Virus record (IMG/VR): IMGVR_UViG_3300032087_004980
Direction: 5' to 3' (one strand)
Source: a virus
DNA: 60,073 nucleotides
Shown here: one piece after another, positions 1 to 23,786 of the stretch
Position numbering within the stretch: the first letter of the stretch is position 1
How the letters are laid out: each line of letters begins with the position of its first letter
The notes under the pieces: generated by a model
The model's database searches: none
What the model was told of the DNA's origin: nothing
The model's input: only the letters and a program-made list of their open reading frames with translations
Position numbers and translations under genes: made by a program

Positions 1-91
1 TTAAGAAGATTGACTTCTACTTAAAGGACAGCTATGATGGTCACATGAGCATAGACAAGCTTGTAGAAAGAGCTTATCAGAAGTACAATGC
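1..91. repeat. Exact 91-nt terminal overlap (1-91 = 59983-60073), a circular-closure signature; unit genome about 59,982 bp
   Basis: Base-by-base comparison of both contig ends gives an identical 91-mer. Confidence 0.97.
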
Positions 92-173: not shown

Positions 174-3100
174 ATGAATGAAGAGGCACTACAAGACGCC
201 TATACTCTGTTCCAGCAGGGTGGATATACAAAGTCTTTTGATGAGTTTGTAACTCTTATAAACACAAATGATGAGGCCCTCCAAGATGCCTACACTTTGT
301 TTACTGAAACAGGCTACAGCAAAGGGTTTGAGGACTTCAGCACCCTGATGGGTGTAAAAAAAAAAGACGCTGCTTCGCAGCAGGACTCAGTTTTGGGGAT
401 GGATTCTACGGTGCCTACCTCAGGTACAGCTCCGCAGGCTCAACCACAGAGTGGAGATGCGGTTTCTACAGAGACTCCAGTAGCAGGGTTTGAGACAAAG
501 CTGGCGCCTGGTGGTTTTGGCATGGCGCCTGGGTTAGAGTTTGTACAGACTCCAGAAGAACCCAACTTTTTGACAGGTCCTTTTGGAGACTTGGTCAACA
601 GCATTCCTATTATTGGAGACTTGATTGACGACTCTTTTAGATCCGTGTCTAAAGGCAATAAAAGAAAAGAATCTATTGCGGAGACTCACAATATCATTAC
701 AAAGAATGGGAACTTTAACATGGATGATATTACATCCTACGTTGAGTCTGTTCAAAAGTATCAAGATCAGGTTGCTGAGATAGGCAAGAGCAAAGAGATG
801 CTTGAGTTCGAGGCTATCTACGCAGAAGACCCCAATGCATGGGGGTTTGTTCAGGGTATCGCAGCCAATCCAAGTCTTCTTCCAGAAGTGTTTCTTGAAA
901 GCGGCGCATCCATGCTCAATCAGCAGTCTGGTGAGGCCTTTCTTGCTACGCTAGTTGGAGGAACGGCTGGCGGGGCGGCTGCTGCAGGCCCAGCAGGAGC
1001 AGGGGTAGGCGCTGTCGCCTCTATCCCATTTGCTTTTGCTGCTGCGGGATCACAGCTAGAGATTGCTGCCGCCTTTACAGAGCTTGTCCAAGAAGAACTT
1101 GGAGACAACGAGTTCAACGCGGAGAACGTCTACAACCTTCTTAACAACGAGGAGAAGTATGGGGAGATTGTCCGCAAAGCAAAAACAAAGGGCTACACAA
1201 TTGGTGCTATTGACGCCTTTACGGCCAAGGTTGGTATTGGAGCGTTTGCCCGCTTGCAAAAGCAAGGAAAGAGGGTTGCAGCACCGCTGGTTGCCGCCAC
1301 CACAGAAAGCGTAGGCGGAGGAGTTGGGGAGGTTGCTGGCTCTGAGCTTGCGGGCATGGAGTATAGCGCCGCAGATGTTGGCTTCGAGGCGCTTGCAGGT
1401 CAGACAGGTACTCCCGTAACCATCGCCTCTGCAAGAATGGACCAGATGCGCCAGAGAAATCTCGACAAGCCAGCCGTTGTGCTTCCTAAAAACCCTATTG
1501 GTCTTGACACACCCGTGTACTCCATAGATGGGGAGCAGATGGACAAGGACATGTTTGTTGACATGGTGCAGAAAATGAGCCCAGACGAGATTCAAAACAT
1601 GTCACTGTCCGTGGCGAACGACGATCAAACTGCTGGACTTGTAGATGATCTTGTTAGGGGAGCAGAGATTCAGAGAGGCATTGACCCAGAGATTCAGGGT
1701 GAGGATAGAGCCAAGCTTGTGGCCCTTGAGAAAGAGCGTGCTAAATATGAGGGCTCTCCTTTGCGTAGCGCGAAGCGGAAGCTAGGCCAGATTGACGCCA
1801 AGATTGAGGCGATTCAAAACAAGTACGACACTGACCCAGAGATCGCACCAGCGGACCAGGTTGTTCCCACGTTTGGCGATGCCCTTGATTCTCAGGCAAC
1901 CATGCAAGATGGCACTAAAGGTGTTATCAGAAGAGACAAGGAGTACGGAGACAGGATAGTCTTTGAAACAGAGAATCAAATCATGGATTTGGGCAATGCC
2001 CAGGACCTGATGGACAAGCCTGTGTCTGACCTGAATATCACAGCGATCAAGTCAGAGGTGACTGTCACTCCTGACGGTGAGTTCGTTGTGCAGGGGGATG
2101 TGTTTAGCTCTCAGTCAGAGCTGCCAACACTTGGCATAGAGTACGACGAGAGCGGCAACGTAAGAGCCGTGAGCGTAAAGCGAGCCAACGGCCAGCCTAA
2201 GATGTTTGAGGGGGACGTTGCTGAAGACCTTGCGTATCAGATCCTGTTGCAGCAGGCGCAGACTGAATCGCAAGTCGAGAGAGTAAACCAAGAACTAGAT
2301 CAAGACGAAGAATTTCAAAGAGACCATGACCAATATGTCAACCGCAAACAAAAAGAGCTCGATGGAGAAACTCCTGGAGCTGCCACGCCCGTTGCAGATG
2401 AAGTATCTGAAGAAGCATCTGTTGAACCAGAGCCAACCCCAGAGCCCATCGAGCCAAGGCCAGTCGAGCCCCTCGAACCCAGACCAATAACTCGTGAGGA
2501 GCTGGCTAAGCGCCAGAAAGAAGACGACGTATTCCTGCCTAAGGAAGGCGGAAGAACTGTGTTTGGCATCCCAGTAAGTAGCTTCAAAGACTTTGGCAAC
2601 TTCATTAGAAGAAAAGGATTTAGCAGCAGGTCTTTCCGCACTAGGTCTTTTAGGGATTTGATGGAAAAGCAAGAGGGACAAATGTCCTTCTACAACAACT
2701 TGGTTGACAGGACTGTACGTAAGGTAAACAGAGAGTTTAAGAAGGCGAGCAAAGGTCTGAGCAAAGAACAAACTAATCAGCTCAATCAGGCGTTCGACGC
2801 AGCGGTTAGAGGCGATATGAATCAACCGCTTCCTGCTGAACTTAAAGCTCTTGCATCAGAGATGCGAGCTCAAATAGACGGACTCTCTCAGGAATTGCTT
2901 GCACTTGGAGGGCTGCCTAAAGAAATAGCGGAATCAATCGAGGCTAACATTGGAGAATACATGCGTGTGTCTTACCGCATGTTTGATGATCCAAACTATA
3001 AGCCAAGCGACTTTATTAGAGAAAGAGCTAGGCTTATTTTGAGAGGCCAGGTAGAGGAGGCTGCTCGAAACCATGCTGAAAGAACTGGCGAAGATGTTGA

Positions 3101-5075
3101 GGAAGTAATTAATCGCCATATTGACAGGGAGCTGGCGGACATCATTGCCACTGAACAACAATCCTCAGCTTACAGATCAGGCAAGTTTGGAAGTAAGGAC
3201 ATTGGAAGCCTTAAACCTAAAAAGAATATAGACCCAGATATCCAGGCGTTTATGGGTCTGTACACTGATCCAACACTTAACTATGCGAGGACCATTCAGA
3301 CCCTTAGTAACATGGTTACTAACACCAGGTTCTTGAATGATATGTATGAGGCTGGCACAAAGAACGGCTGGATGTTTGAGGCTAACGATCCAAACAGGTC
3401 TCAGCAATTCTCTTACAAGTTAGCTGGAGATAACACTAAAACTTTTGATCCATTGGGTGGTATGTATACCACACCAGAGATTGGCGCGGCATTGGAAAAG
3501 GCACAGCGGCAGTACGGCGTTTTTGCTAAGACCTACAGAACATTGGTGGCATCAGCTAAATACTCAAAGACCATTTTGTCTCCTGTCACTCACAGCGTAA
3601 ACTTTGTTGGGAACGCTGTAATTGCTGCTTCAAACGGCCACTTTGATACTTCATCAGGTCACAATCCTTTTAAAGTTTTGGGCGCAGACATTGGGCTTAT
3701 AGATGATGTTGAACTCACAAACTACTTTGATGAGCTGGTAAAAAGAGGCTTGATCGCGCAGTCCCCCGCATTGAACGAAGTAAAGGCTCTGTTTGAGGAC
3801 GGTAATGTTCAGGCTCTTCTTGAAAACAGAGCTTCAGAATCTAATCTAACAAGAAGACAAAAGGTTTCCAACGCTGTTGCAAAAGGAAAGTCCAAGCCTG
3901 AGAGACTCTATCAGGCGGAGGACGATGTTTGGAAGATTTTTGGAGCAAACAACGAGATTAATAGATACGCTAAAATTTATTACGGCAAGTCTTCTGATCA
4001 ACTTACAGACGCAGAGCTTGACAGGGTTATGGACACAGCTGTTGAGAATGTAAAAAACACCTACCCCAACTATGGAAGAGCGCCTGAACTAATTAAGGCT
4101 CTTAGGTTTGCCCCTATTGGAAACTTTGTAACATTTCAGGCGGAGGCGTACAGAACACAGTACAACATTTTCGCCCTTGCGGCCAAAGAAATATCAGAGG
4201 GAAAGAAGACAAACAACCAGGAGATGATAAACGCAGGAGTCTCAAGGCTTTCTGGGGCTATGGGATATAATTTGTTCCGTCGCAGCACGATAGAAGGAAC
4301 TGCTCTGATGGTTGGATTGGGGTATGCAGGATTTGGTGATGACAAAAAGACACAAGAAGTAAAACAAAAAGAAGCAGACCTTAAAATGTTCCTTCCTTTT
4401 TGGTCAGAAAATTCAGAGGTGTACTACACGAACATAGAGCCAGGCTCAATGACATACATTGATGCGAATGCTTCAGATCCATTTGGAAATATTGACAGAA
4501 TACAAAACGCTTTTCTTAATGGAGACAATCTGCAAGAAAGCCTTATAGAGTCCTTAAGACAAACTGTCGCACCGTTTTCTGATCCAGAGATGGTTGCTCA
4601 AACATTTAACAACCTCATCAACGGAACAAAATCAAGCGGAGCCCCTCTGTACACTGAGGGCATGACTGATGTTCAAAAAGGTGAGGCTATAATCGAGGAG
4701 GTTTACGACCTCTTTAAGCCTGGCGCAATCACATCTATGGAAACGCTTGCTAAAGCAGACAATAAGATTGTAACTGGAATGCTCATGTCGATTGGTCAGC
4801 GTCCTTACAAGGTTGATTTTAACGAGCAGTTTAAGTACAGGGCCTATGACGCTGGGAAAATAATCAGCGATGCCAAGCGCGTTGGATATGACAGAGACAC
4901 CAACACGTGGACCAATGAAGGCAACAGGCAGGTTTATGAAGAGGCCCTCATGGGGTTATCAGATTACTACATGGCTGCGGTGAGGCTTGGTGTTGACACA
5001 GATGCACTCATAGAATCAATGCAAAAAGCAAGAATCAATAACGACGATAGGTACCGTATTAGAGTAGGAAGATAA
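174..5075 (+). CDS. Large virion-associated protein, 1633 aa (putative internal/ejection protein; function unknown)
   Basis: Uninterrupted 4.9-kb ORF with ATG start. N-terminal 2x ~30-aa tandem repeat (N[ED]EALQDAYTLF..GY.K.F.[ED]F). Gly/Ala-rich hydrophobic stretch (GGTAGGAAAAGPAGAGVGAVASIPFAFAAAG). Sits among other large late genes, as podovirus core proteins do. No catalytic motif seen. Confidence 0.8.
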   Translation: MNEEALQDAYTLFQQGGYTKSFDEFVTLINTNDEALQDAYTLFTETGYSKGFEDFSTLMGVKKKDAASQQDSVLGMDSTVPTSGTAPQAQPQSGDAVSTETPVAGFETKLAPGGFGMAPGLEFVQTPEEPNFLTGPFGDLVNSIPIIGDLIDDSFRSVSKGNKRKESIAETHNIITKNGNFNMDDITSYVESVQKYQDQVAEIGKSKEMLEFEAIYAEDPNAWGFVQGIAANPSLLPEVFLESGASMLNQQSGEAFLATLVGGTAGGAAAAGPAGAGVGAVASIPFAFAAAGSQLEIAAAFTELVQEELGDNEFNAENVYNLLNNEEKYGEIVRKAKTKGYTIGAIDAFTAKVGIGAFARLQKQGKRVAAPLVAATTESVGGGVGEVAGSELAGMEYSAADVGFEALAGQTGTPVTIASARMDQMRQRNLDKPAVVLPKNPIGLDTPVYSIDGEQMDKDMFVDMVQKMSPDEIQNMSLSVANDDQTAGLVDDLVRGAEIQRGIDPEIQGEDRAKLVALEKERAKYEGSPLRSAKRKLGQIDAKIEAIQNKYDTDPEIAPADQVVPTFGDALDSQATMQDGTKGVIRRDKEYGDRIVFETENQIMDLGNAQDLMDKPVSDLNITAIKSEVTVTPDGEFVVQGDVFSSQSELPTLGIEYDESGNVRAVSVKRANGQPKMFEGDVAEDLAYQILLQQAQTESQVERVNQELDQDEEFQRDHDQYVNRKQKELDGETPGAATPVADEVSEEASVEPEPTPEPIEPRPVEPLEPRPITREELAKRQKEDDVFLPKEGGRTVFGIPVSSFKDFGNFIRRKGFSSRSFRTRSFRDLMEKQEGQMSFYNNLVDRTVRKVNREFKKASKGLSKEQTNQLNQAFDAAVRGDMNQPLPAELKALASEMRAQIDGLSQELLALGGLPKEIAESIEANIGEYMRVSYRMFDDPNYKPSDFIRERARLILRGQVEEAARNHAERTGEDVEEVINRHIDRELADIIATEQQSSAYRSGKFGSKDIGSLKPKKNIDPDIQAFMGLYTDPTLNYARTIQTLSNMVTNTRFLNDMYEAGTKNGWMFEANDPNRSQQFSYKLAGDNTKTFDPLGGMYTTPEIGAALEKAQRQYGVFAKTYRTLVASAKYSKTILSPVTHSVNFVGNAVIAASNGHFDTSSGHNPFKVLGADIGLIDDVELTNYFDELVKRGLIAQSPALNEVKALFEDGNVQALLENRASESNLTRRQKVSNAVAKGKSKPERLYQAEDDVWKIFGANNEINRYAKIYYGKSSDQLTDAELDRVMDTAVENVKNTYPNYGRAPELIKALRFAPIGNFVTFQAEAYRTQYNIFALAAKEISEGKKTNNQEMINAGVSRLSGAMGYNLFRRSTIEGTALMVGLGYAGFGDDKKTQEVKQKEADLKMFLPFWSENSEVYYTNIEPGSMTYIDANASDPFGNIDRIQNAFLNGDNLQESLIESLRQTVAPFSDPEMVAQTFNNLINGTKSSGAPLYTEGMTDVQKGEAIIEEVYDLFKPGAITSMETLAKADNKIVTGMLMSIGQRPYKVDFNEQFKYRAYDAGKIISDAKRVGYDRDTNTWTNEGNRQVYEEALMGLSDYYMAAVRLGVDTDALIESMQKARINNDDRYRIRVGR

Positions 5076-5077
5076 CT

Positions 5078-5515
5078 ATGGAACAGAACAAAAAAATCAA
5101 AGACACAGGGCTTGGGAAATGGCTGAAGTCAAAAGCACCCAACGTGCTCGATGTGGTAGGAGACCTTCTCCCAGACCAGGGAGGGTTGGGCATTGTAAAG
5201 AATCTTATTGAAAAAGATCCAGACGTAAACACAGACGAAGGCATTGCCGCTGTGGACGCAGAGATTCAGTTTCAGAACAACGTGACTGAGCGCTGGAAGG
5301 CAGACATGGGCAGCGATGTAAAGCTTGCAAAGCTCATCAGACCAGTAACTTTGATCGCCTTGATGACGATGTTCATGGTCACTATGGTGGCGGACAGCAT
5401 GGACAACTGGCCCTTTAACGTAAAGGATTCATACGTAGATTTGTTGCAAATATTAATGCTAACAGCATTTGGTGCATACTTCGCTGGTAGAACCATTGAG
5501 AAAGCTAAGAAATGA
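5078..5515 (+). CDS. Membrane protein, holin candidate (3-TM GTA-type-like layout)
   Basis: 145 aa. Amphipathic N-terminus followed by hydrophobic helices (LIRPVTLIALMTMFMVTMVA; LLQILMLTAFGAYFAG). ATGA overlap with the next gene. Confidence 0.5.
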   Translation: MEQNKKIKDTGLGKWLKSKAPNVLDVVGDLLPDQGGLGIVKNLIEKDPDVNTDEGIAAVDAEIQFQNNVTERWKADMGSDVKLAKLIRPVTLIALMTMFMVTMVADSMDNWPFNVKDSYVDLLQILMLTAFGAYFAGRTIEKAKK

Positions 5516-7653
5516 GATTTTTGTTGCTGATGTTTTTACCCCTGTTTGCTACTGCTCAGACAGGCTGGGTCTCTATCTCTATACAGGGTGATGCATACGG
5601 CAACGAAACTACATGGCTAGTTCGAGACTCCAGCGACGCCATTGTCGCGGGGTCTGCTCCCCTCCAGGGGGAGTATCCTTACGTTGAGGCCTTTCTTCCT
5701 CTTCCTGAAGGCGACTACACCTTTACTATCTACGATTCGTTTGGTGATGGCATCTGTTGCGGATTTGGAGAGGGATGGTTCTCTATCAACACCTGCGTCC
5801 TGGACACCACGGTGTACGACTTCAGCACGTCAGAGATGACCGTCCCCTTCGAGGTGCTTGCGTGTCCGCCCCCCATCTTTGGGTGTATGCAGGTTGGCGC
5901 CATCAACTATCACCCTTGGGCGAACGCGCCTGCCCCTTGCGACTTCCCACCAGCACAATGCGAAGAAGGATACAGCAACGTCCTTGTCACCGTTACGCCT
6001 GACACTTATGCAGCTGAGATCAGCTGGGACTTGATGACGTTCCCAGATGGTGAGATTGTTGCTGAGGGATCAGGCTATTCTATTGTGGGTGCCCCTGTTG
6101 TAGAGGCGGTGTGTCTACCCGTGGGCTCAGAGTTTAAGGTCAACGTGTACGACACCTTTGGCGACGGCATGTGTGGTAGCTGCTACGGCGGCGTCGATGG
6201 AAACATCCTGGTGTCCAACCTGTGTGGCGATGAGCTTTACTACGTTGGTGACACCACTCAGTACGAGAGCATTGGCAGCGACATCATTGCTGTAGACGCA
6301 TGCGTGCCACCAGTGCCTCAGGGGTGTACGGATCCATGGTTTACAGAGTACGATCCGTCTGCTGTGCTAGACGACGGCACCTGCCAGACAGAAGTAATCC
6401 TAGGATGCACTGATCCTCAGTCAATTAACTTCAACGAGGATGCCAATACTCTGGAGACAGAAGATAACTGTGACTTTACTCTGACACTTACAGATGGAGC
6501 AGGTGACGGTTGGTTTGGTAGCTGGATTGGAGTTCAACAGGGCGACGAGATCTGGGGGCCACTTACTATGCACCCCAGTGATGGGTTTGAGAAAGAGGTT
6601 CAGATCCCCTTGTATTCTGGAGAGGGGGTTAAGGTCATGTTCTTTACGCAGGGCAACGCAGAAACTACAGCTAATCAATGTGGGTTCTACTTTGATGGAC
6701 CCAACGGTGTGTTTATGGAGGGCGGAACTAACCCCTGGTCTGACGCCATCAAGAAGTTCCCATTCAAGTACAGTGGTATCCCTGTATGCGGAGACTTCTG
6801 TGTGCCTGCCATTGAGGGATGTACGCTCAGCTTTGCCTGCAACTACGACCCCGCAGCCAACGTGGATGGCGACTGCACTTTTCCCATCGAGTACTACGGA
6901 TGCGACAACGAGTGCATCAACGATGCGGACGGCGACGGTGTGTGTGACGAGCTGGAAGTGGCTGGATGCCAAGACCCAACAGCCTACAACTACAACGAAG
7001 CTGCTACAGACCCAGCAGATTGTGAAGAGGTTGTGTTTGGGTGCACTGATCCCACCATGTTCAACTACAACGAGCTGGCCAACACAGAGAACAATAGCTG
7101 CATTCCGTTCATCTACGGATGCACGATCCCAGAGGCCATCAACTACGACCCCATGGCCAACACCAACAACGGTAGCTGCGAGCTGCCTATGCCAGGGTGC
7201 ATGGACCCTGACGCGGCTAACTACAACGTGTACGCCAACGTGCCAGCCAATGAGGAATGCCTCTACGATGCGGGATGCATCACTGGCCCTGGTGAACCAT
7301 ACTGGGCGAACGACTACTGCTACTCATGGGTCATCGAGGTTGACCCCTACTGCTGTGAGGTTGGTTGGGATGCGGTGTGCATCGAGATGTATGACTACTG
7401 CAGCCAGGGCGTGACTAGTGTAGAGGCGCTGGACTATAACTCAATTCAGATGTGGCCCAACCCAACGTCTGGTGTGCTCAACTTCCAGGCCCCTGCAGAG
7501 GCGTTTGCAGACGTTTACAGCCACTCTGGGCAGCTTGTAATGTCATGGCAGGGAGGCAGAGAGATCGACCTCAGAGCGCTTCCTAATGGATTGTATGAAG
7601 TTGTAATCAATTACAAGGGTAGAGTTAGAGTCGAAAGAATCGTGAAGCAATGA
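5512..7653 (+). CDS. Secreted Cys-rich repeat protein with T9SS (Por) type-A C-terminal sorting domain
   Basis: Signal peptide MRFLLLMFLPLFATA/Q. Three ~100-aa modules with D-[ST]-F-GDG or DGAGDGW motifs. Eight ~25-aa repeats G-C-[TMQ]-[DIL]-P-x-A-x-N-Y-[ND]..A[NT]...C. The last ~80 aa fit the Por_Secre_tail pattern (MWPNPTSGVLNF .. LPNGLYEVVI .. RIVKQ). Confidence 0.88.
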   Translation: MRFLLLMFLPLFATAQTGWVSISIQGDAYGNETTWLVRDSSDAIVAGSAPLQGEYPYVEAFLPLPEGDYTFTIYDSFGDGICCGFGEGWFSINTCVLDTTVYDFSTSEMTVPFEVLACPPPIFGCMQVGAINYHPWANAPAPCDFPPAQCEEGYSNVLVTVTPDTYAAEISWDLMTFPDGEIVAEGSGYSIVGAPVVEAVCLPVGSEFKVNVYDTFGDGMCGSCYGGVDGNILVSNLCGDELYYVGDTTQYESIGSDIIAVDACVPPVPQGCTDPWFTEYDPSAVLDDGTCQTEVILGCTDPQSINFNEDANTLETEDNCDFTLTLTDGAGDGWFGSWIGVQQGDEIWGPLTMHPSDGFEKEVQIPLYSGEGVKVMFFTQGNAETTANQCGFYFDGPNGVFMEGGTNPWSDAIKKFPFKYSGIPVCGDFCVPAIEGCTLSFACNYDPAANVDGDCTFPIEYYGCDNECINDADGDGVCDELEVAGCQDPTAYNYNEAATDPADCEEVVFGCTDPTMFNYNELANTENNSCIPFIYGCTIPEAINYDPMANTNNGSCELPMPGCMDPDAANYNVYANVPANEECLYDAGCITGPGEPYWANDYCYSWVIEVDPYCCEVGWDAVCIEMYDYCSQGVTSVEALDYNSIQMWPNPTSGVLNFQAPAEAFADVYSHSGQLVMSWQGGREIDLRALPNGLYEVVINYKGRVRVERIVKQ

Positions 7654-8684
7654 GATATATCGCAACCACACTGCTGCTGCTGCTATGCTTTAACGCATCA
7701 GGCCAGGGTCTAAAAAAGGCCTTTAAGTTTGCCACCTTCTACACAGCATTCAGTGGAGGTAACTCGTTGTCAGACAGGGAGGTATTCTCCGTGGCCAATG
7801 GTCTTGAGACAGACGTGATCCAAACTCCTTTCGATTACTCCTTGACTGCAGGCGTTCGCAAGATTGCTCGTTTTGGATACGAGAACAGAGCCAACACATT
7901 CTACAACGGAACAGAAAAGTCTTACGGCGATGCCGCCACCATTGGCAAGGTGAGTGGCTTTGAGTTCCTGTTCGAGGGAGACTACAGGAGACAGCAGGGT
8001 GTCAACTACCTGGACCAGGACTATTTCCTCAGATATGTGGCGGACAAGTGGATCGCCAAGGTGGAGTTCCTGCAGGATGGTTTCGCAGATGTAAGATACT
8101 TCGAGGCATCACAGAGGGGGAGAGTTAAGCTTGGCAAACTCTCGCTCAACGCTGGGCTTATGCAGCGCCTGTCAGAGCCATACGGATACGACCCATTGAA
8201 CGAGTGGTTGCTAGACAACAATCAACTTCACTTTACTTCACTCGCTCTGCAGGAGGGGTATAACATTGACGTGAACACGGGTGAGTTCTTCAGCCCAGGC
8301 GGAACGCTCGTGGCCAGCAGCTACGAGGTGTGGGAGGAAGTTGTCATCCCCCAGGCGCTCGAAGATTATGTGAGCAAAAAACGTGGAGAACTGGACAATC
8401 AATGGGTTCATTCTGTGGTAGTTGGCTTTGACTACTACCACTTTACAAAGGACTTTTGGGTGCATAGCTGGGCCAACCTGATCCCCTACCACTTGGACAC
8501 AGACGGCGAATACTCGTACCACAGGTTCGTGAATAGCGGGCAGTGGCTCGACTATTCTGGAGGCCTTATCTTTGGTAAAAGATTCAACAAAAGTTTTGGT
8601 GTATTCGCAGAGGGTAAATACCACAAGTATTGGGACAGGTCATGGCATGACTTCTCTCTGGGAATCAACTATGTAATTATTTGA
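7650..8684 (+). CDS. Exported protein, putative outer-membrane beta-barrel
   Basis: Signal peptide MRYIATTLLLLLCFNASG/QG. 344 aa of alternating aromatic/polar strand-like segments up to the C-terminus (..WHDFSLGINYVII). ATGA overlap with the upstream cargo gene. Confidence 0.6.
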   Translation: MRYIATTLLLLLCFNASGQGLKKAFKFATFYTAFSGGNSLSDREVFSVANGLETDVIQTPFDYSLTAGVRKIARFGYENRANTFYNGTEKSYGDAATIGKVSGFEFLFEGDYRRQQGVNYLDQDYFLRYVADKWIAKVEFLQDGFADVRYFEASQRGRVKLGKLSLNAGLMQRLSEPYGYDPLNEWLLDNNQLHFTSLALQEGYNIDVNTGEFFSPGGTLVASSYEVWEEVVIPQALEDYVSKKRGELDNQWVHSVVVGFDYYHFTKDFWVHSWANLIPYHLDTDGEYSYHRFVNSGQWLDYSGGLIFGKRFNKSFGVFAEGKYHKYWDRSWHDFSLGINYVII

Positions 8685-8685
8685 T

Positions 8686-8970
8686 ATGGCTCAGCAGATT
8701 GGGGAGGACACTAAGATTACGCTAGACCTAAAGACAATAGGCATGCTGGCTGCGGGGATTGGTACAATCGTGGCCATGTGGTTTGCCTTACAGGCAGACA
8801 TCGCTGAGGCAAAGGAGTTGCCCGTGCCACCAGACCCAGACATCACGCGCATGGAGTTTGACATGAAGGACCAGCTTGTCCGTCAGACAATCATGAGCAC
8901 ACAAGAAGATATCACTGAGATTAAGGAGGATATCAAGCGTATTGAAGAAAAAATAGATCAACTAAGATGA
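8686..8970 (+). CDS. Single-pass membrane protein with charged coiled-coil tail (i-spanin-like topology; unproven)
   Basis: 94 aa. TM helix IGMLAAGIGTIVAMWFAL, then EDITEIKEDIKRIEEKIDQL. Confidence 0.6.
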   Translation: MAQQIGEDTKITLDLKTIGMLAAGIGTIVAMWFALQADIAEAKELPVPPDPDITRMEFDMKDQLVRQTIMSTQEDITEIKEDIKRIEEKIDQLR

Positions 8971-8973
8971 GAC

Positions 8974-9339
8974 ATGAAGACCTTACCTCTCCTGTTTGCA
9001 TTCTCTGTTCTATCCTTGGCACCTGCCTCTGTGGCAGATGTAGTGGATGACAAAATATGTGACAGCGGCATCTGCGTAGTAGAGTTCAACGCATCTTTCA
9101 ATTCCCAAAATAGTGTGGAATGGATAGAAAAACTGAACGATTGCGAAACAAGCCGTGTAGACATTGTGTCTGCTCCATCCCTACAGAAGGAGCACAAGAT
9201 TGTCGTGGTTCCAACCATCGTTGTATTCAGCGAGGGCGAGGAAGTGAAAAGGTTTCAGGCCAACATCATGATGACGATGGAGGCCAGTAAGGACGATGTC
9301 CAAGGGGCGGTTGATGAAATCATGATGAGCGACTTCTGA
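8974..9339 (+). CDS. Secreted thioredoxin-fold-like protein (non-canonical active site)
   Basis: 121 aa. Signal peptide ..SVLSLAPASVA/D. KIVVVPTIVVFSEGEEVKRF resembles the cis-Pro beta3-beta4 region of thioredoxins. Has CDSGIC instead of WCGPC. Confidence 0.45.
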   Translation: MKTLPLLFAFSVLSLAPASVADVVDDKICDSGICVVEFNASFNSQNSVEWIEKLNDCETSRVDIVSAPSLQKEHKIVVVPTIVVFSEGEEVKRFQANIMMTMEASKDDVQGAVDEIMMSDF

Positions 9340-11540
9340 TGCAAGTAAAAAAGAAATACAACCATGGTGGCATCCATAACTGGCCCCCTGGTACAGAGGT
9401 CATGGCTTCTGATAATACATCTGTAGCTGCACCCCAGCTTACATTTCTTACATCTCAGCTTTTAAATCAGCCCTCAGGGTATGTAGAAAAAAGACGCGAC
9501 GAAAATTTAACACGTTTGGGTCTTGACGGACCATCTCTTAGGAATCAAACGCTAAGAGATGAGTTGCAGCGAGATGCTTTTGTCGAAGCAGAACATCAAC
9601 AAAAGATTCAGAGGTTGATGCAAAGCGGTTTTACGAGAGAGGCTGCTGAAGAACACATTGAACAGTCTAAAATGTTGGGCACGGCCACTCCTGTCGCGCC
9701 AGTTATGGAGTTTTTGTCTCCAGTTGGGGACATTATGGCGCTGGGTGACGCTGCTCGTCTCGCTATGCAAGGAGAATATGGTGCAGCAGGAGTAACTGGA
9801 GGGCTGGCTACTGCCTCAATCTTTTTGCCAGGCACAATAAACCCTGCTCACGCTATGGCGGACGATCAGATAAGAACGTTGGCCACTAGAACCGCACAGC
9901 AGGGTGTCATAAGCAATAAGGTGCCAGATGTAATTGAATACATCCAAGAGGCAGCGACAATGGGCAACATTAGTTTTGGCAGAACAAGGTCTAGCGCCCT
10001 GGGCGGAGGGCAGCGTGCTTGGACAGAGCCTCAGATTGGAGTAAGCTCTTTGCCCAACAGCGGGTATTTGAGAGACTTTTTTGACAGGCCTCAATCGCAG
10101 CATGTAGTTAATCAAGCGGGAGGAGGGGTTACTGATTTCTCTTATCAATCAGGCAGAAGCTTAGCAGATGCATTGGGCGTGAGGAACTCAAACCTTACTG
10201 ACCTAGAGCTTCAGCAAACCAGAGACATCATCAATAACTTTATAAACTCGCCTGGCCTTGCGCAGCTCCATCCTGATCAGAGAGAGTACTATCAAGGTCT
10301 AATTGATGGTCTTACAGAGAACCTTCCTGGTGGTTCAGCTCGTCAGCTGGGTCAGCGATCAGGCAACCTACCCTCAACTGTTCAAAGCCCATCTGTTGCT
10401 GGCAGTGAGTATCAAATTACCAGCGTTAGGCAAAGGCCTGGTGCGACAACAGCGTCAGGCAAACCACTTACTGAGACGGTTAATGTAAAGACGTATGGTA
10501 AGGGCGTGTCTGCTTCTTACATAGTAAATAGAAATAAACCAAAACCTGGTGAGGTATTGACAAGGATGGAAACTTTTCCTACGTCAGGCTTCACCGTTAG
10601 GATGAAAGCCCAGCTAAATCCTGGGGATGGTGGAGTGGATCACGACTTTCTTCTTCAGTCAACCAGAATCGACCAGTCACAGTTGTATCAAGACAGGTAC
10701 GCTGAACTGCTACGACAAGGCGCTACAGCTGACATCGCTGCGGCTCAGGTAAGGACGGAAGCTGATGCTGCAATTTCAAAAACCTTAAGCGCCATGTTTG
10801 CTGAGGTTCCCGTGGGGGATTTTGTCACCACGAGAAGCTATAGCACAGATTCATATCCGCTGATGCTTAGGCAGCTGGCAAGGGGCAAATACAAGACCGT
10901 AGCTGACGATCTTACTGATGTAGGCTTTGGCACCTCAGATATATCTATTGCTGGTCTTAACACCATGGGGCAAGGAGGCTTTTTTAAATCAATGAATTTT
11001 GAGGATTACATCGACCCACAAGTTCTAGATGATGTATTGAACGACCCTGTCATTGCTTCAAACATAAAGAAAAGATTTGATACGTTGATGAAGGGTAGAG
11101 CTCGCACCGCCAAGAACGAGCAGCTTGCTCAACACCAAGCAACGGTACAGGAATTGATGGAAGCAGCTGATACAAATCCAATGACAGCCTCTATGATGAG
11201 GGGGGGGAGTAACGTAACCACAGATCAATCTCACGCGATTGGGAAAAGCTTTGAGCGATTTGCAAATGACCAAATATCTAGGACTAATGAGGACGCCCTG
11301 GATGCGCTTATCCGCGAAGAAGCAAGGGCCTCCAACATCAGTCTACAACAGGCTGAAATCAAGGTAATGAATGAGTTCGTACCATTGCCTAAGGCTAGGT
11401 ATGATGAAACCCTCAATACACTGATGGTCCCCGTACCTAGGATTCAAAAAATCAGGGCACAAACAGGTGCCTACATAAAGAATCCAGGATTTAAATCCAA
11501 AAAGAAAAAGGCTGCCTACGGCATGAGAGTCAAAAAATAA
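9339..11540 (+). CDS. Large protein of unknown function, 733 aa (last gene of the rightward unit; possibly virion-associated)
   Basis: Long ORF whose ATG overlaps the upstream stop (TGATG). N-terminus MQVKKKYNHGG shares a motif with the products of 27152 and 26658. Confidence 0.8.
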   Translation: MQVKKKYNHGGIHNWPPGTEVMASDNTSVAAPQLTFLTSQLLNQPSGYVEKRRDENLTRLGLDGPSLRNQTLRDELQRDAFVEAEHQQKIQRLMQSGFTREAAEEHIEQSKMLGTATPVAPVMEFLSPVGDIMALGDAARLAMQGEYGAAGVTGGLATASIFLPGTINPAHAMADDQIRTLATRTAQQGVISNKVPDVIEYIQEAATMGNISFGRTRSSALGGGQRAWTEPQIGVSSLPNSGYLRDFFDRPQSQHVVNQAGGGVTDFSYQSGRSLADALGVRNSNLTDLELQQTRDIINNFINSPGLAQLHPDQREYYQGLIDGLTENLPGGSARQLGQRSGNLPSTVQSPSVAGSEYQITSVRQRPGATTASGKPLTETVNVKTYGKGVSASYIVNRNKPKPGEVLTRMETFPTSGFTVRMKAQLNPGDGGVDHDFLLQSTRIDQSQLYQDRYAELLRQGATADIAAAQVRTEADAAISKTLSAMFAEVPVGDFVTTRSYSTDSYPLMLRQLARGKYKTVADDLTDVGFGTSDISIAGLNTMGQGGFFKSMNFEDYIDPQVLDDVLNDPVIASNIKKRFDTLMKGRARTAKNEQLAQHQATVQELMEAADTNPMTASMMRGGSNVTTDQSHAIGKSFERFANDQISRTNEDALDALIREEARASNISLQQAEIKVMNEFVPLPKARYDETLNTLMVPVPRIQKIRAQTGAYIKNPGFKSKKKKAAYGMRVKK

Positions 11541-11541
11541 A

Positions 11542-11565
11542 GAGAGGGGGCACCACCCCCCTCTC
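11542..11565. terminator. Convergent-unit hairpin terminator
   Basis: GAGAGGGGG-caccac-CCCCCTCTC, a 9-bp GC-rich stem, lies between the ends of the plus and minus units. On the minus strand it is followed by CTTTATTTTTTG. Confidence 0.75.
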
Positions 11566-11615
11566 CTCGACTCAAAACACAATCACTATAGCAGCAACTG
11601 ATTCTTCAAAGGTAA

Positions 11616-21110: not shown

Positions 21111-21144
21111 GCAAAGATATGAACAAATTGTCGAGAATCCAAAT
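21111..21144 (-). promoter_or_regulatory. Early promoter P1 (Bacteroidetes -33/-7 type)
   Basis: Minus strand reads ATTTGGATTCTCGACAATTTGTTCATATCTTTGC, i.e. TTTG-N20-TATCTTTG. 31/34 identical to P2. Confidence 0.7.
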
Positions 21145-21851: not shown

Positions 21852-22003
21852 TTCTGCTTGTTTTTCAAGTATTCAACGGCTTCCGCAATGCTCTGGCACT
21901 GGGGTGTGGGTTCGTGTGTCCCGTCTGCGAAGTGCAACTTGTTGAGTTCAGGGGCATAAGCGTGCCGCTCAAGGCCCAGGAATGGGTGGATGCGCTTGTT
22001 CAT
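21848..22003 (-). CDS. Mini-ORF (51 aa)
   Basis: Internal ATG (MNKRIHPFLG..) is ATGA-coupled to the upstream hydrophobic mini-ORF. Confidence 0.4.
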   Translation of the reverse strand: MNKRIHPFLGLERHAYAPELNKLHFADGTHEPTPQCQSIAEAVEYLKNKQK

Positions 22004-22107
22004 GTGAAAGGGTTTTTGAGGTTCATCCAATCGCTGATGAGTTGGACAATGATGGCCCCGCAGATGCCGCAGGCGGCCCATGTGAAGATGGTTTGGATTG
22101 TTTCCAT
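22000..22107 (-). CDS. Hydrophobic mini-ORF (35 aa, single TM)
   Basis: METIQTIFTWAACGICGAIIVQLISDWMNLKNPFT; TAATG and ATGA couplings. Confidence 0.35.
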   Translation of the reverse strand: METIQTIFTWAACGICGAIIVQLISDWMNLKNPFT

Positions 22108-22241
22108 TATGCGAAAATTTCATTTTCGACGTGCATTTGCTCGTCGCAGGTGAGTGTGTCCCACTCGTGTGTGGTGGTGGCTTGTTCGATTGTCAGCCCC
22201 TCGAACATGGAGGCGATTGCTTGCATACGGATGTGTTGCAT
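22107..22241 (-). CDS. Mini-ORF (44 aa), first gene after early promoter P2
   Basis: ATG at 22241 is preceded by the CACTCAAAACACACACCACC leader, ~45 nt downstream of the P2 -7 box. Confidence 0.45.
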   Translation of the reverse strand: MQHIRMQAIASMFEGLTIEQATTTHEWDTLTCDEQMHVENEIFA

Positions 22242-22287
22242 GGTGGTGTGTGTTTTGAGTGAGTCACCTCCCGCTGTGGAAGGCTCC

Positions 22288-22321
22288 GCAAAGGTATGAA
22301 CAAAATGTTGAGAATCCAAAT
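22288..22321 (-). promoter_or_regulatory. Early promoter P2
   Basis: Minus strand reads ATTTGGATTCTCAACATTTTGTTCATACCTTTGC, i.e. TTTG-N20-TACCTTTG. Confidence 0.7.
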
Positions 22322-22351
22322 CTAATTTGCTTCCCGTTGGTTTTCAGTGAG

Positions 22352-22954
22352 TTAGCGACCCCATCGACGACGGATGGCCACCCATACGGCTGCCTGTAGC
22401 TCGTATCCCTGCACGCCTAGTTCCTGCGCAACCTTGCGCGTTTCCTCCGCGACCGCGTCGTATTGCAGGGGCGTTACCTGTGTGCGGAGTTCTTTGGGCT
22501 GTTTGGAGGCACTTTGGACGGCCCTCATGTGCCACTTGTCCACGGTCACATACGCTCGATCGAGTGCGCACACGTTACGGGCGAACGCATACGTCTTGCG
22601 TGAGGATGGCTCGATTTCTTTGCGCCCCTGCGCAATGGCAAAGGCTTTCAACTTGTTGGCGTCGTAGGTACAGCACTTGACCGCTTCCGCAGGCACGCCG
22701 TCGCGCACCGCCTGCATGACTGCGTGTGCGTCTTGCTTGTTTCGTTCCCAAACATTGTTGGGGGAAAGGGCGGAGATGACTTGCGCGGCACGGGCGGTTG
22801 AGCACTCGAACTCACGCGCAAGCTCTTGGGCGTATGCCTGCGCTTCCGTGTACCATGTGCGCCCGTGTGCTCGCTCGTCAGGGGTGCATTCGTTCCACCA
22901 AAGGCGGAGGTTCTTGCGTATGCGCTTACGCGCTTGTGTGTCCGTGAAGGGCAT
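22352..22954 (-). CDS. Hypothetical protein (200 aa), GC-rich early gene
   Basis: Clean ORF with ATG start and GC-rich codons. No motif I can assign. Confidence 0.7.
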   Translation of the reverse strand: MPFTDTQARKRIRKNLRLWWNECTPDERAHGRTWYTEAQAYAQELAREFECSTARAAQVISALSPNNVWERNKQDAHAVMQAVRDGVPAEAVKCCTYDANKLKAFAIAQGRKEIEPSSRKTYAFARNVCALDRAYVTVDKWHMRAVQSASKQPKELRTQVTPLQYDAVAEETRKVAQELGVQGYELQAAVWVAIRRRWGR

Positions 22955-22965
22955 GGGTCAGTGGA

Positions 22966-23553: not shown

Positions 23554-23592
23554 GGGTGAAAGGTTTTGAGTGACTTCGACGTTGAAGCCACC

Positions 23593-23626
23593 GCAAAGGT
23601 ATGAACAACTTGTGGAAAATCCAGCG
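23593..23626 (-). promoter_or_regulatory. Early promoter P3 (conserved -7 box, diverged -33)
   Basis: Minus strand reads CGCTGGATTTTCCACAAGTTGTTCATACCTTTGC. It shares GTTGTTCATACCTTTGC with P2. Confidence 0.6.
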
Positions 23627-23746
23627 GTCTTCTCGTGCGCGATTTCTCCCGCGTGAAGGGTACGTAGTACCCCGCGTGGAAACAGGCGAAGAAGCGTAGC
23701 GTAGCGGGTGGGTGGCGTGGGGGTGTGAAGCCCCCCAAGATTTGGC

Positions 23747-23786
23747 GTTGATAATTGACTGTTGATATTGGCATTGATTGTCCACA
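23747..23786. repeat. Three ~13-nt TTGAT-type iterons ending in a DnaA-box-like 9-mer (TTGTCCACA, 23778-23786)
   Basis: GTTGATAATTGAC-T-GTTGATATTGGCA-TTGATTGTCCACA read directly. The 9-mer matches TTATCCACA at 8 of 9 positions. Confidence 0.5.

What the first reader, a model, noticed from the sequence alone, without database searches (positions are those of the whole stretch)
5078..9339. Five-gene envelope cassette (holin-like TM, T9SS cargo, OMP-like barrel, TM coiled-coil, secreted Trx-like) embedded in the virion operon
Five consecutive, tightly packed genes (ATGA overlaps at 5512 and 7650; gaps of 1-3 nt otherwise) all carry membrane or export signals. They sit between two very large virion-type genes.

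The central product has a Sec signal peptide and a canonical type-A T9SS C-terminal domain. It should therefore be exported and surface-attached by the host Por/T9SS machinery rather than assembled into virions in the cytoplasm. It is followed directly by a signal-peptide protein that looks like an outer-membrane beta-barrel. A periplasmic thioredoxin-fold-like protein comes next and could serve the dozens of cysteines in the cargo.

Gliding/T9SS surface components are known to be needed for infection by several Flavobacterium phages. A phage module that re-decorates the cell surface is therefore a reasonable hypothesis; possible roles are superinfection exclusion, a receptor mask, an adhesin or a decoy. 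I am not aware of a described multi-gene phage module of this composition, but that is a judgement from memory, not a search.
Basis: partly seen in the sequence, partly recalled or inferred. Interest (0 to 1): 0.85.

Follow-up and report, generated by a model that had tools for sequence, protein, structure and literature searches.

The report
Phage envelope cassette with T9SS cargo
A complete 60-kb marine phage genome, probably from a phage of Bacteroidota (the phylum that includes flavobacteria), carries a tightly linked set of exported proteins that recurs in hundreds of uncultured phages, and the phage most likely uses it to put its own protein complex into the infected cell's envelope.

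Summary
Five tightly packed + strand genes lie at 5078-9339.

- **g1** matches a holin family.
- **g2** has a signal peptide, 39 cysteines and a C-terminal T9SS type A sorting domain. It scores 29.9 bits against TIGR04183, whose cut-off is 23.
- **g3** is a signal-peptide protein predicted to be a 12-stranded outer-membrane barrel.
- **g4** has one membrane helix followed by a heptad helix.
- **g5** is a secreted protein with a thioredoxin fold, but the CXXC site is deleted, so it cannot be an oxidoreductase.

The conserved unit is g2-g5, not all five genes. All four co-occur in 113 non-redundant viral loci, always on one strand and in one cyclic order. The same unit sits in phage-like contigs of about 300 kb. 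It has no relatives in cultured phages or isolate genomes. The cargo is variable (median 35% identity to the window) while g3-g5 are conserved (about 62%).

My best reading (confidence about 0.42) is a surface-display unit that depends on the host T9SS, analogous to the PorP/PorE/cargo and SprF/SprB complexes. The main rival is an outer-membrane disruption device used in lysis.

Single phage T9SS cargo genes are already published. This four-gene unit was not found in the literature searched. The function is untested.

The parts
5078..5515 (+). g1: putative holin, 145 aa, with a long N-terminal soluble part and a C-terminal hydrophobic region. It is loosely linked to the cassette, not a core member.
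   Evidence: It matches PHROG 3427 'holin' at 1.3e-21. Homologues are annotated as holin or TM-helix proteins in Vibrio phages and in environmental phage records from a spring-water sample. One strong hydrophobic segment lies at residues 83-108, and I read a second, weaker one at about 117-135 by eye. In relatives it lies upstream of the four-gene unit in 22 loci, downstream in 46, or is not found in 45.
5512..7653 (+). g2: exported cysteine-rich modular protein, 713 aa, 39 Cys. It has three 'GDG' modules, repeats of the form GC-x-D/E-P-x-A-x-NY-N/D, and a conserved CC-E-x-x-W-D-x-x-C module. It is the variable 'cargo'.
   Evidence: No Pfam or PDB match lies outside the CTD. There are 2082 database relatives. 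Median identity to the window is 35%, against about 62% for g3-g5. One variant (L139) starts with a MAM domain at 6e-18.
5512..5556 (+). g2 signal peptide, MRFLLLMFLPLFATA | Q, with Gln at +1 as in the Bacteroidetes Q-rule.
   Evidence: Read from the sequence. The pattern is conserved in 104/115 homologues. The Q-rule is described in PMC5837995.
7450..7650 (+). g2 C-terminal T9SS type A sorting domain (residues about 647-713).
   Evidence: TIGR04183 scores 29.9 bits (cut-off 23), and 33.5 bits when scanned alone. PF18962 scores 26.3 bits (cut-off 27). 31 of 39 diverse family C-termini match TIGR04183. The family profile hits solved T9SS CTDs: 7pzj at 1e-6, 8glk_D, 8glj_D and RgpB.
7650..8684 (+). 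g3: outer-membrane beta-barrel protein, 344 aa. Signal peptide ...NASG | Q19. About 12 strands, with a helical insert at about residues 177-250.
   Evidence: The AlphaFold2 model has pLDDT 70 and pTM 0.63, with 12 long strands. Foldseek PDB hits are nearly all outer-membrane barrels, with NanC best at 2.5e-5. Q19 is invariant. Every sampled homologue outside the window's own clade ends in an aromatic residue, usually ...NYVIF. There are 3358 relatives and no Pfam, NCBIfam or PHROG family.
8686..8970 (+). g4: small bitopic membrane protein, 94 aa. It has one TM helix (residues 17-36), a Pro-rich linker, and a C-terminal heptad helix carrying the conserved motif TRMEFDMKDQ.
   Evidence: Hydrophobic segment. 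Family alignment. Only a weak hit to PHROG 1009, of unknown function. No relative in cultured phages even at E<=1. N-in / C-out topology and the coiled coil are inferred from the sequence.
8974..9339 (+). g5: secreted thioredoxin-fold protein without a CXXC site, 121 aa, with an invariant C-terminal Phe.
   Evidence: All 110 homologues with a complete N-terminus have a signal-peptide-like hydrophobic core. The family profile hits thioredoxins, best 2vim at 9e-9, with the WCGPC segment aligned to a gap. Invariant residues include N39, A40, N43, W50, P80, T81 and F121.
174..5075 (+). Context: a giant ORF of 1633 aa directly upstream. This position is hypervariable among relatives.
   Evidence: It matches PHROG 32588, of unknown function, at 2.7e-30. 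In relatives whose cassette is about 90% identical, the ORF at this position (1424-3102 aa) has no or only weak similarity.
9339..11540 (+). Context: a 733-aa ORF after g5. It is specific to this genome and ends the rightward operon.
   Evidence: No homologue in any of the 155 related loci. The differently sequenced 907-aa ORF that follows the cassette in L088 (one small ORF after g5) carries an SLT transglycosylase domain.
11539..11568 (-). Context: a strong hairpin terminator between the rightward late operon and the convergent replication genes.
   Evidence: 12-bp stem, 7 GC pairs and a T run. The only terminator-like matches inside the cassette are weak, with 3 GC pairs.

Best explanation
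Genes g2-g5 form one self-contained envelope module that the phage expresses in an infected Bacteroidota cell.

**Shown by sequence**
- g2, g3 and g5 carry Sec signal peptides of the Bacteroidota type.
- g2 ends in a type A T9SS sorting domain.
- g3 has the features of a 12-stranded outer-membrane barrel.
- g4 is a single-pass membrane protein.
- g5 has a thioredoxin fold with no redox site.
- The four genes are inherited together in one fixed cyclic order. They have moved between unrelated phage backbones of about 60 kb and about 300 kb.

**Inferred**
- g2 folds and forms its disulfides in the periplasm with host enzymes, then crosses the outer membrane through the host T9SS.
- g3 is inserted by the host BAM machinery and acts as g2's dedicated outer-membrane partner or anchor.
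- g5 in the periplasm and g4 in the inner membrane, with its helix in the periplasm, bind the inner face of that complex.
- The arrangement mirrors the host's own cargo / PorP-like barrel / periplasmic PorE complexes.
- The result is a variable, adhesin-like phage protein displayed on the infected cell.
- The likely benefit is to change what the cell surface binds: masking or excluding receptors (protecting progeny from debris or blocking superinfection), or adhesion.

g1 is a holin that merely lies next to the module.
For: - **Export signals are conserved family-wide**, with Gln at +1, which fits a Bacteroidota host (PMC5837995). Two Bacteroidota-type promoter motifs elsewhere in the genome agree with that host.
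- **The CTD passes TIGR04183**, and the family profile matches only experimentally solved T9SS CTDs.
- **g3 is an outer-membrane barrel**. Sampled homologues outside the window's clade end in an aromatic residue.
- **Strict co-occurrence.** 113 non-redundant loci hold all four genes, on the same strand, in only three orders that are cyclic permutations of one another. Every locus lacking g2 lacks the DNA where g2 would lie, at or near an end of the fetched stretch or contig.
- **Portability.** The same order occurs in phage-like contigs, including one of 301,804 bp, with no recognisable structural genes within 10 kb.
- **Different rates of change.** The cargo is variable and swaps modules, including a MAM adhesion domain, while g3-g5 are conserved.
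- **Phage-only.** No relatives were found in cultured phages. Only six mis-binned MAG contigs turned up among 185,579 species genomes.
- **A host precedent exists.** T9SS cargo genes sit beside cognate outer-membrane shuttle or anchor genes, and a PorE-PorP-PG1035 complex has been isolated (PMC9143113, PMC12618676).
Against: - No experiment and no complex prediction links g3-g5 to g2.
- g3 does not match PorP/SprF or PorV, either by HMM or by fold. It has no C-tail cysteines; its single Cys lies in the signal peptide.
- In the known system, type A CTDs use PorV, not a private shuttle.
- 17 of 131 cargo homologues have a short tail that matches no T9SS signal. They share one g3 clade with cargos bearing canonical tails, so g3 does not visibly track the tail type.
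- In the 60-kb genome the module lies in the late operon with no strong internal terminator and no Bacteroidota-type promoter nearby. That timing suits superinfection exclusion poorly.
- A holin is within 1.5 kb in 61 of 113 loci, and the genome has no recognisable lipoprotein spanin. This fits a lysis role equally well.
Confidence: 0.42

Rival explanations
1. g3-g5, with the holin g1, perform the last step of lysis. A complex spanning the envelope would break or fuse the outer membrane after the endolysin has cut the wall. It would consist of inner-membrane g4 with a periplasmic helix, periplasmic g5, and the outer-membrane barrel g3. That makes it a non-lipoprotein analogue of two-component spanins. 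g2 would be an unrelated neighbour.
For: - The holin lies directly beside the unit, on either side, in 61 of 113 loci.
- In most relatives checked the unit ends the late operon, where lysis genes usually lie.
- g4 has the build of an i-spanin: an N-terminal TM followed by a helical periplasmic part.
- No lipobox protein is encoded in any real reading frame of this genome.
- Few flavobacterial phages have annotated spanins (PMC8776804).
Against: - Neither g3 nor g5 is a lipoprotein, so the defining o-spanin feature is absent.
- The periplasmic part of g4 is only about 58 residues, which by my reckoning is short for spanning the periplasm.
- The trio is strongly conserved, at 52-58% identity even between 60-kb phages and ~300-kb contigs. 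From my own knowledge, spanins usually diverge fast.
- g2 never separates from the trio.
- No holin homologue was detected next to the cassette in the ~300-kb contig.
- The M15 endolysin lies 19 kb away.
- The cultured relatives identified through the portal protein show no homologue of g2, g3 or g4, yet they lyse their hosts.
Confidence: 0.2
2. g2 is a soluble secreted or surface protein that needs only the host T9SS. g3-g5 form a separate envelope device, for example a block to DNA entry by other phages or a modifier of a host envelope machine such as BAM, the T9SS or gliding. It would be linked to g2 only because both act in the envelope.
For: - In the known system, type A CTDs are handled by host PorV and need no private partner (PMC12618676).
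- g3 does not track the cargo's tail type.
- g2 can lie before g3 or after g5, and up to several kb away.
- The most conserved segment of g3 (residues about 58-106) is not a predicted membrane strand. That suggests binding to a conserved host component.
Against: - All four genes co-occur wherever the contig is long enough to tell, and they moved together into a different phage backbone.
- g2 and g3 overlap by ATGA here, and the median gap between them is 39 nt.
- No match to any known defence or exclusion protein model.
Confidence: 0.2
3. The five proteins are ordinary virion or assembly proteins of the structural operon, and the apparent export signals are incidental.
For: - In this genome they lie inside the long rightward operon that also holds the portal, structural proteins and a crAss-type muzzle-domain protein.
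Against: - The signal peptides are conserved with Bacteroidota-type cleavage sites in 75-97% of homologues.
- The T9SS CTD and the membrane-barrel fold are incompatible with assembly in the cytoplasm.
- In the ~300-kb contigs the cassette sits among non-structural genes: UvdE, glutaredoxin, ferredoxin and an RNA-binding protein.
- Cultured relatives with characterised virions lack these genes.
Confidence: 0.03

Closest known systems
Host T9SS cargo with a cognate PorP/SprF-like outer-membrane shuttle or anchor (SprB-SprF; the PorE-PorP-PG1035 complex; PMC9143113, PMC12618676, PMC12635249)
   Same: - A CTD-bearing secreted protein is encoded next to an outer-membrane barrel gene.
- A periplasmic partner is part of the set.
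- The cargo is adhesin-like and variable, while the barrel is conserved.
   Different: - The cargo CTD here is type A, not type B.
- g3 matches no PorP/SprF model and lacks the C-tail cysteines.
- g5 (thioredoxin fold) and g4 (bitopic helix) are unrelated to PorE.
- The genes are encoded by phages and have no detectable cellular homologue for g3-g5.
Phage-encoded T9SS cargo genes: 'Cryophage' (PMC7468147) and crAss-BACON cluster 2 contigs (PMC6949934)
   Same: - Phage genes carry a T9SS type A sorting domain.
- They vary between phage variants.
- They were proposed to change the surface or secretions of the infected host.
   Different: - Those are single cargo genes (glycoside hydrolases, PA14 or BACON proteins) without a conserved companion set.
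- Here the cargo travels with three conserved envelope proteins.
- The set is shared across very different phage backbones.
Phage-encoded outer-membrane and periplasmic proteins that alter the host surface (T5 Llp, lambda Lom/Bor, T4 Imm/Sp). This comparison is recalled from general knowledge, not tested here.
   Same: Phage genes with export signals act in the host envelope rather than in the virion. Several of them block receptors or entry.
   Different: - There is no sequence or fold relationship.
- Those are single small proteins, mostly early or lysogenic genes.
- Here there is a four-protein unit that includes a T9SS substrate, located in a late operon.
Two-component spanins (Rz/Rz1 type)
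   Same: - g4 has a small N-terminal TM and a helical periplasmic part.
- It is followed by a secreted protein gene.
- A holin lies next to the unit.
   Different: - There is no lipoprotein partner.
- An integral barrel replaces the lipid anchor.
- Conservation is unusually high.
- The set is always accompanied by a T9SS cargo.
Periplasmic thioredoxin-fold proteins without CXXC in secretion or pilus assembly (F-plasmid TraF). This is recalled from general knowledge; the only data here are a weak Pfam TrbC_Ftype hit at 0.013.
   Same: A secreted thioredoxin fold that has lost its redox site and serves as a structural or assembly partner of an envelope machine.
   Different: The similarity is not significant. 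The system and host phylum are different.

Membership tests
T9SS type A substrate (TIGR04183 / PF18962 CTD proteins) | C-terminal sorting domain that scores above the curated HMM cut-off and lies at the extreme C-terminus | tested here: met
   TIGR04183 scores 29.9 bits against a cut-off of 23, over residues 648-713, and 33.5 bits when scanned alone. PF18962 scores 26.3 bits, just under its cut-off of 27, but a close relative scores 40.6 bits. The family profile matches solved CTDs.
T9SS type A substrate (TIGR04183 / PF18962 CTD proteins) | N-terminal Sec signal peptide | tested here: met
   The sequence reads MRFLLLMFLPLFATA|Q. The pattern is conserved in 104/115 homologues by a crude heuristic. 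SignalP was not available.
T9SS type A substrate (TIGR04183 / PF18962 CTD proteins) | Secretion depends on a host T9SS (Bacteroidota host carrying SprA/Sov, PorV and the rest) | not testable with these tools
   The host is unknown. A Bacteroidota host is inferred from Q-rule signal peptides, from cultured relatives identified through the portal protein that infect Flavobacteriia, and from promoter motifs.
T9SS type A substrate (TIGR04183 / PF18962 CTD proteins) | The signal is present throughout the homologous family | tested here: inconclusive
   107/131 homologues have a canonical tail. 17/131 have a short tail (...TDLLGRP...LFYIYDDGTVEKK) with no hit to type A, B or C models. 7 are cut by contig ends or otherwise incomplete.
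PorP/SprF-like T9SS shuttle or anchor barrels | Match to the family models (Pfam PorP_SprF; the NCBIfam PorP/SprF model) | tested here: not met
   g3 has no Pfam or NCBIfam hit at E<=0.1. Ten distant g3 relatives also lack such a hit.
PorP/SprF-like T9SS shuttle or anchor barrels | Gene lies next to its cognate CTD cargo gene | tested here: met
   g2 and g3 overlap by ATGA here. g2 lies directly before g3 in 93 of 113 loci.
PorP/SprF-like T9SS shuttle or anchor barrels | Cognate cargo carries a type B CTD; SprF has twin cysteines in its C-tail | tested here: not met
   The cargo CTD is type A. TIGR04131 is matched by only 1 of 39 tails, at 0.0098. g3 has a single Cys, inside its signal peptide.
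PorV (FadL-like 14-stranded T9SS shuttle) | 14-stranded FadL-type barrel fold | tested here: not met
   The model has 12 long strands. No PorV entry appears among the top 50 Foldseek PDB matches. The best matches are 12-stranded NanC, FapF and autotransporter barrels. The model is of moderate confidence only (pLDDT 70).
Outer-membrane beta-barrel protein (generic) | Signal peptide, an even number of amphipathic strands, a C-terminal aromatic beta-signal, and barrel fold matches | tested here: met
   The window's own copy ends in ...NYVII, as do its closest relatives. Every sampled homologue outside that clade ends in an aromatic residue, usually ...NYVIF.
Thioredoxin (redox-active) | Thioredoxin fold | tested here: met
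   The family profile matches 181 PDB sequences at E<=1. All of the 60 best listed are thioredoxins or thioredoxin-like, with 2vim best at 9e-9.
Thioredoxin (redox-active) | CXXC active site after strand 1 | tested here: not met
   The WCGPC segment aligns to a gap. The family has the conserved sequence FNA-x-(F/W)-N instead. The CDSGIC in the window lies before strand 1 and occurs only in a subclade.
Two-component spanin | i-spanin: N-terminal TM plus a periplasmic coiled coil | tested here: inconclusive
   g4 has this build, but its periplasmic part is only about 58 residues. It has no family match.
Two-component spanin | o-spanin: outer-membrane lipoprotein with a lipobox Cys | tested here: not met
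   g3 and g5 have no lipobox, and none occurs in any real reading frame of the genome.
Holin (g1) | Small membrane protein that matches a holin family and lies near lysis genes | tested here: inconclusive
   It matches PHROG 3427 at 1.3e-21, and its relatives are annotated as holin. The annotation is computational, and the endolysin (Peptidase_M15_3, 27922-28401) is not adjacent.

The most novel reading that the evidence does not exclude
g3, g4 and g5 are a virus-encoded counterpart of the host's cargo-specific T9SS shuttle and anchor complex. Phages bring both a variable adhesin-like cargo and its private outer-membrane docking station. In this way they take over part of the host's secretion flow to rebuild the surface of the infected cell. 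The module is portable between phage lineages from 60 kb to about 300 kb. The minority of cargos with the short, unclassified tail would then carry a new sorting or docking signal read by the phage barrel rather than by the host.
Probability: 0.3. Interest if true: 0.8.

Novelty: new variant of a known kind. Interest (0 to 1): 0.62.

Why it matters
Flavobacteriia are major degraders of algal organic matter in the sea. Their surface proteins, many placed there by the T9SS, govern attachment, gliding and phage adsorption.

This envelope module is phage-only and found in thousands of marine metagenome sequences. g3 alone has 3358 clusters at 90% identity. If abundant marine phages routinely install their own surface complex, that could change how infected cells stick, glide or take up further phages.

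It would also give T9SS research a compact, natural set of cargo plus accessory proteins for testing how cargo is sorted and anchored. It provides three new protein families (g3, g4, g5) with clear predicted locations but no known function. If the lysis reading is right instead, it would fill the gap of the missing outer-membrane disruption step in many flavobacterial phages.

Tried and rejected
- **Close or cultured relatives.** Megablast of the cassette and tblastn of g2, g3 and g4 against 50,697 phage records found nothing. g5 gave only weak thioredoxin hits.
- **Family assignment of g3.** There are no Pfam, NCBIfam, PHROG or PADLOC hits. A profile search of PDB sequences found nothing. Ten distant relatives have no informative Pfam domain.
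- **First g3 model.** It was weak (pLDDT 59). A deeper alignment raised it to 70. Foldseek still gave only the generic outer-membrane barrel class.
- **g5 as oxidoreductase.** Rejected, because there is no CXXC.
- **g2 as a decoy sharing domains with the phage's own large proteins.** Rejected. g2 has no similarity to any other window ORF. Close g2 relatives sit beside entirely different giant ORFs.
- **Domains of the g2 N-terminal modules.** Pfam scans of sub-segments and a PDB profile search gave nothing beyond the CTD.
- **The short cargo tail as a type B or C signal.** No match.
- **Co-variation of g3 with tail type.** All short-tail cargos fall in one g3 clade, which also holds canonical tails, so the result is uninformative.
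- **Prophage or host origin.** The genome scan gave only six MAG contigs of inconsistent taxonomy.
- **Own promoter for the cassette.** There is no Bacteroidota-type promoter motif near it. Sigma-70-like matches are fewer than chance would give.
- **One call failed** on a frame error and was repeated.

Full report
**1. What is there**

The window is a complete phage genome. Its first and last 91 bases are identical, leaving 59,982 unique bases. On the + strand, five ORFs lie at 5078-5515 (g1, 145 aa), 5512-7653 (g2, 713 aa), 7650-8684 (g3, 344 aa), 8686-8970 (g4, 94 aa) and 8974-9339 (g5, 121 aa).

The region contains no strong terminator. A strong hairpin follows the next gene at 11539-11568, where the rightward operon meets convergent replication genes.

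Elsewhere the genome encodes:
- a large terminase and a portal (PHROGs 6681 and 6547) and structural proteins;
- a protein with a crAss-type muzzle domain at 56501-57511;
- an M15 peptidase endolysin at 27922-28401.

By portal similarity (about 28-33% identity), the nearest cultured phages infect Cellulophaga, Flavobacterium, Maribacter and Tenacibaculum.

**2. The five products**

*g1* matches PHROG 3427, annotated holin, at 1.3e-21. Its relatives are annotated as holin or TM proteins in Vibrio phages and in environmental phage records from a spring-water sample.

*g2* begins MRFLLLMFLPLFATA|Q and has 39 cysteines.
- Its C-terminus passes TIGR04183 at 29.9 bits against a cut-off of 23, and 33.5 bits when scanned alone.
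- It narrowly misses Pfam's threshold for PF18962, at 26.3 against 27.
- A profile of the family finds only T9SS sorting domains among solved structures: a lipase CTD (7pzj, 1e-6), the CTD chains of 8glk and 8glj, and gingipain RgpB.
- The rest of g2 consists of three 'GDG' modules, cysteine-bounded repeats and a conserved CC-E-x-x-W-D-x-x-C module. None of it matches Pfam or the PDB.

*g3* begins with a signal peptide ending NASG|Q19, and Q19 is invariant across the family.
- With a 111-sequence alignment, AlphaFold2 gives pLDDT 70 and pTM 0.63. The model has 12 long antiparallel strands and a helical insert at about residues 177-250.
- Foldseek matches are nearly all outer-membrane barrels. 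The best are 12-stranded NanC, then FapF and autotransporter barrels. TM-scores are low and PorV does not appear.
- Every sampled homologue outside the window's own clade ends in an aromatic residue, usually ...NYVIF, the usual barrel-assembly signal. The window's copy ends in ...NYVII.
- No curated family matches.

*g4* has one hydrophobic helix at residues 17-36, a proline-rich linker and a heptad-patterned helix. The motif TRMEFDMKDQ is very strongly conserved.

*g5* has a signal peptide in every homologue with a complete N-terminus.
- Its family profile matches thioredoxins, best at 9e-9.
- The WCGPC active-site segment aligns to a gap. The family carries FNA-x-(F/W)-N instead, and every member ends in Phe.

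**3. Are the export signals real?**

I applied a crude test: an N-terminal hydrophobic core followed by a small residue and Gln. It is met by 104/115 g2 homologues, 112/115 g3 homologues and 82/110 g5 homologues, against 2 of 52 other ORFs of this genome. Gln at +1 after signal peptidase I cleavage is the Bacteroidetes 'Q-rule' (PMC5837995). It has been noted before in prophage proteins of Porphyromonas (PMC10367356). Two near-identical TTTG-N19-TAnnTTTG motifs at 21112-21143 and 22289-22320 also fit Bacteroidota promoters.

**4. The conserved unit is g2-g5**

IMG/VR holds 199 relatives of g3 and 92 of g2. After removing duplicates, 113 loci contain all four genes. They are always on one strand and show only three orders: g2-g3-g4-g5 (85 loci), g3-g4-g5-g2 (20) and g4-g5-g2-g3 (8). 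These are cyclic permutations of one order. Every locus lacking one of the four lacks the DNA where it would lie, at or near an end of the fetched stretch or contig.

Median identity to the window is 35% for g2, against 63%, 62% and 62% for g3, g4 and g5. Cargo length ranges from about 620 to about 1240 aa with module swapping, and one variant starts with a MAM domain at 6e-18.

The holin lies within 1.5 kb on either side of the unit in 61 loci and was not detected in 45.

The neighbours are not conserved. The giant ORF upstream (1424-3102 aa in relatives) is unrelated even where the cassette is about 90% identical. The 733-aa gene after g5 is unique to this genome. In most relatives checked, g5 or the holin ends the operon.

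**5. The unit is portable and phage-only**

About half of the best g2 matches in the large protein database are proteins of about 1060-1240 aa. Several of them lie on contigs of 171-302 kb. One such contig, of 301,804 bp, carries in this order:
- a cargo of 1189 aa;
- a g3 homologue (52% identity);
- a g4 homologue (58%);
- an extra 113-aa gene;
- a g5 homologue (53%).

Its neighbours are phage-like: PHROG 850 at 7e-154, a UvdE endonuclease, a phage lysozyme and a glutaredoxin. A second such context agrees.

g3 has 3358 relatives at E<=1e-3, and none of the 120 best listed carries a Pfam domain or an informative name. A profile search of 1.84 billion representatives found 380 clusters. A scan of 185,579 species genomes found only six MAG contigs with mutually inconsistent taxonomy, which I read as mis-binned viral contigs. 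No cultured phage has g2, g3 or g4.

**6. Mechanism**

*Shown:* the export signals, the T9SS signal, the barrel fold, the redox-dead thioredoxin fold, strict co-inheritance and portability.

*Inferred:*
- g2 is exported by Sec, oxidised by host enzymes, and carried across the outer membrane by the host T9SS.
- g3 is inserted in the outer membrane as its partner.
- g5 in the periplasm and g4 in the inner membrane bind that complex from inside.

The host offers a direct precedent. Type B cargo genes sit beside cognate PorP/SprF-like barrels that shuttle or anchor them (PMC12618676). A PorE-PorP-PG1035 complex, made of a periplasmic protein, a barrel and a surface cargo, has been isolated (PMC9143113).

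I rate this reading at about 0.42. Four things count against it:
- g3 fails every PorP/SprF test I could apply.
- Type A signals normally use PorV.
- 17 of 131 cargos carry a short tail that matches no known signal.
- g3 does not track tail type.

The biological pay-off, whether receptor masking, exclusion or adhesion, is speculation. Placement in a late operon fits early-acting exclusion poorly.

**7. Rivals**

*Lysis role for g3-g5 (0.2).* This reading is kept alive by the adjacent holin, the position at the operon's end, the i-spanin-like build of g4, and the absence of any lipoprotein spanin candidate in the genome. It is weakened by the lack of a lipoprotein, by the high conservation of the trio, by the constant presence of g2, and by the fact that no holin homologue was detected next to the cassette in the ~300-kb contig.

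*Two separate envelope functions that merely travel together (0.2).* This cannot be excluded.

*Virion structural role (0.03).* This is very unlikely.

**8. Comparison with what is known, and novelty**

Phage-encoded T9SS cargo has been reported in 'Cryophage' (PMC7468147) and in crAss-BACON contigs (PMC6949934). That element is therefore not new. Phage-encoded outer-membrane barrels also exist.

Three things appear to be undescribed in the literature I could search:
- the conserved four-gene unit;
- its three orphan families;
- its spread across unrelated phage backbones.

I file it as a new variant of a known kind, of moderate to high interest, with its function unproven.

Noticed in passing
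window 1-91 and 59983-60073: The first and last 91 bases are identical. The window is therefore a complete genome of 59,982 unique bases, either circularly assembled or terminally redundant. The rightward operon runs across the window ends into the 1633-aa gene.
   Followed up: partly
window 21112-21143 and 22289-22320 (- strand): Two near-identical motifs of the form TTTG-N19-TAnnTTTG, the Bacteroidota promoter type, lie upstream of leftward genes. There are four matches in the genome against 1.7 expected by chance.
   Followed up: no
window 174-5075, and the same position in L082, L084, L088, L089, L095 and L007: The giant ORF just upstream of the cassette (1424-3102 aa) is replaced by unrelated sequence even among phages whose cassette is 85-94% identical. 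This is a hot spot of replacement, possibly for host recognition or an ejected protein.
   Followed up: partly
L162 10001-15677; L163 10001-15660: The cargo-barrel-TM-thioredoxin-fold cassette also occurs in phage-like contigs, including one of 301,804 bp. Other cargo homologues of this long class lie on contigs of 171-302 kb. In these two loci there is a longer cargo (1184-1189 aa) and one extra gene of about 100-113 aa between the g4 and g5 homologues.
   Followed up: partly
L114, L116-L123, L126, L142-L146, L148, L153 (C-termini of the g2 homologues): 17 of 131 cargo homologues end in a short conserved tail (...K-x-L-x-x-(I/V)-TD-(L/I)-LGR-P ... LF-(Y/F)-IY-(D/S)-DG-(T/S)-(V/I)-EKK) in place of the T9SS CTD. 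It matches no type A, B or C model. It may be a truncated or a new sorting signal.
   Followed up: partly
protein P0217 (representative library): A 314-aa protein joins an FGE-sulfatase domain (the domain family of GldJ, GldK and PorK, from my own knowledge) to the C-terminal third of a g3-like barrel. It could be a real fusion or an assembly chimera.
   Followed up: no
window 56501-57511: The product carries a crassvirus muzzle-protein C-terminal domain (PF25729, 1.6e-9). This suggests crAss-like tail architecture in this marine phage lineage.
   Followed up: no
window 27922-29201: The endolysin candidate (Peptidase_M15_3, 1.4e-20) lies 19 kb from the holin. A concanavalin-like Laminin_G_3 protein follows it directly.
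   Followed up: no
window 22001-24000: GC content rises to 0.58 against about 0.46 for the genome, with a strongly negative AT skew. This may be a recently acquired segment.
   Followed up: no
window 8974-9339 and g5 homologues: Every g5 homologue ends in Phe (...M-S-D-F), and sampled g3 homologues outside the window's clade also end in an aromatic residue, usually Phe. The invariant terminal Phe on a small periplasmic protein may be a docking signal.
   Followed up: no
L088 14569-17292: One small ORF downstream of g5, where the window has its unique 733-aa gene directly after g5, a relative has an unrelated 907-aa protein with a C-terminal SLT lytic transglycosylase domain (3.3e-13). This resembles an ejected wall-cutting protein.
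   Followed up: no
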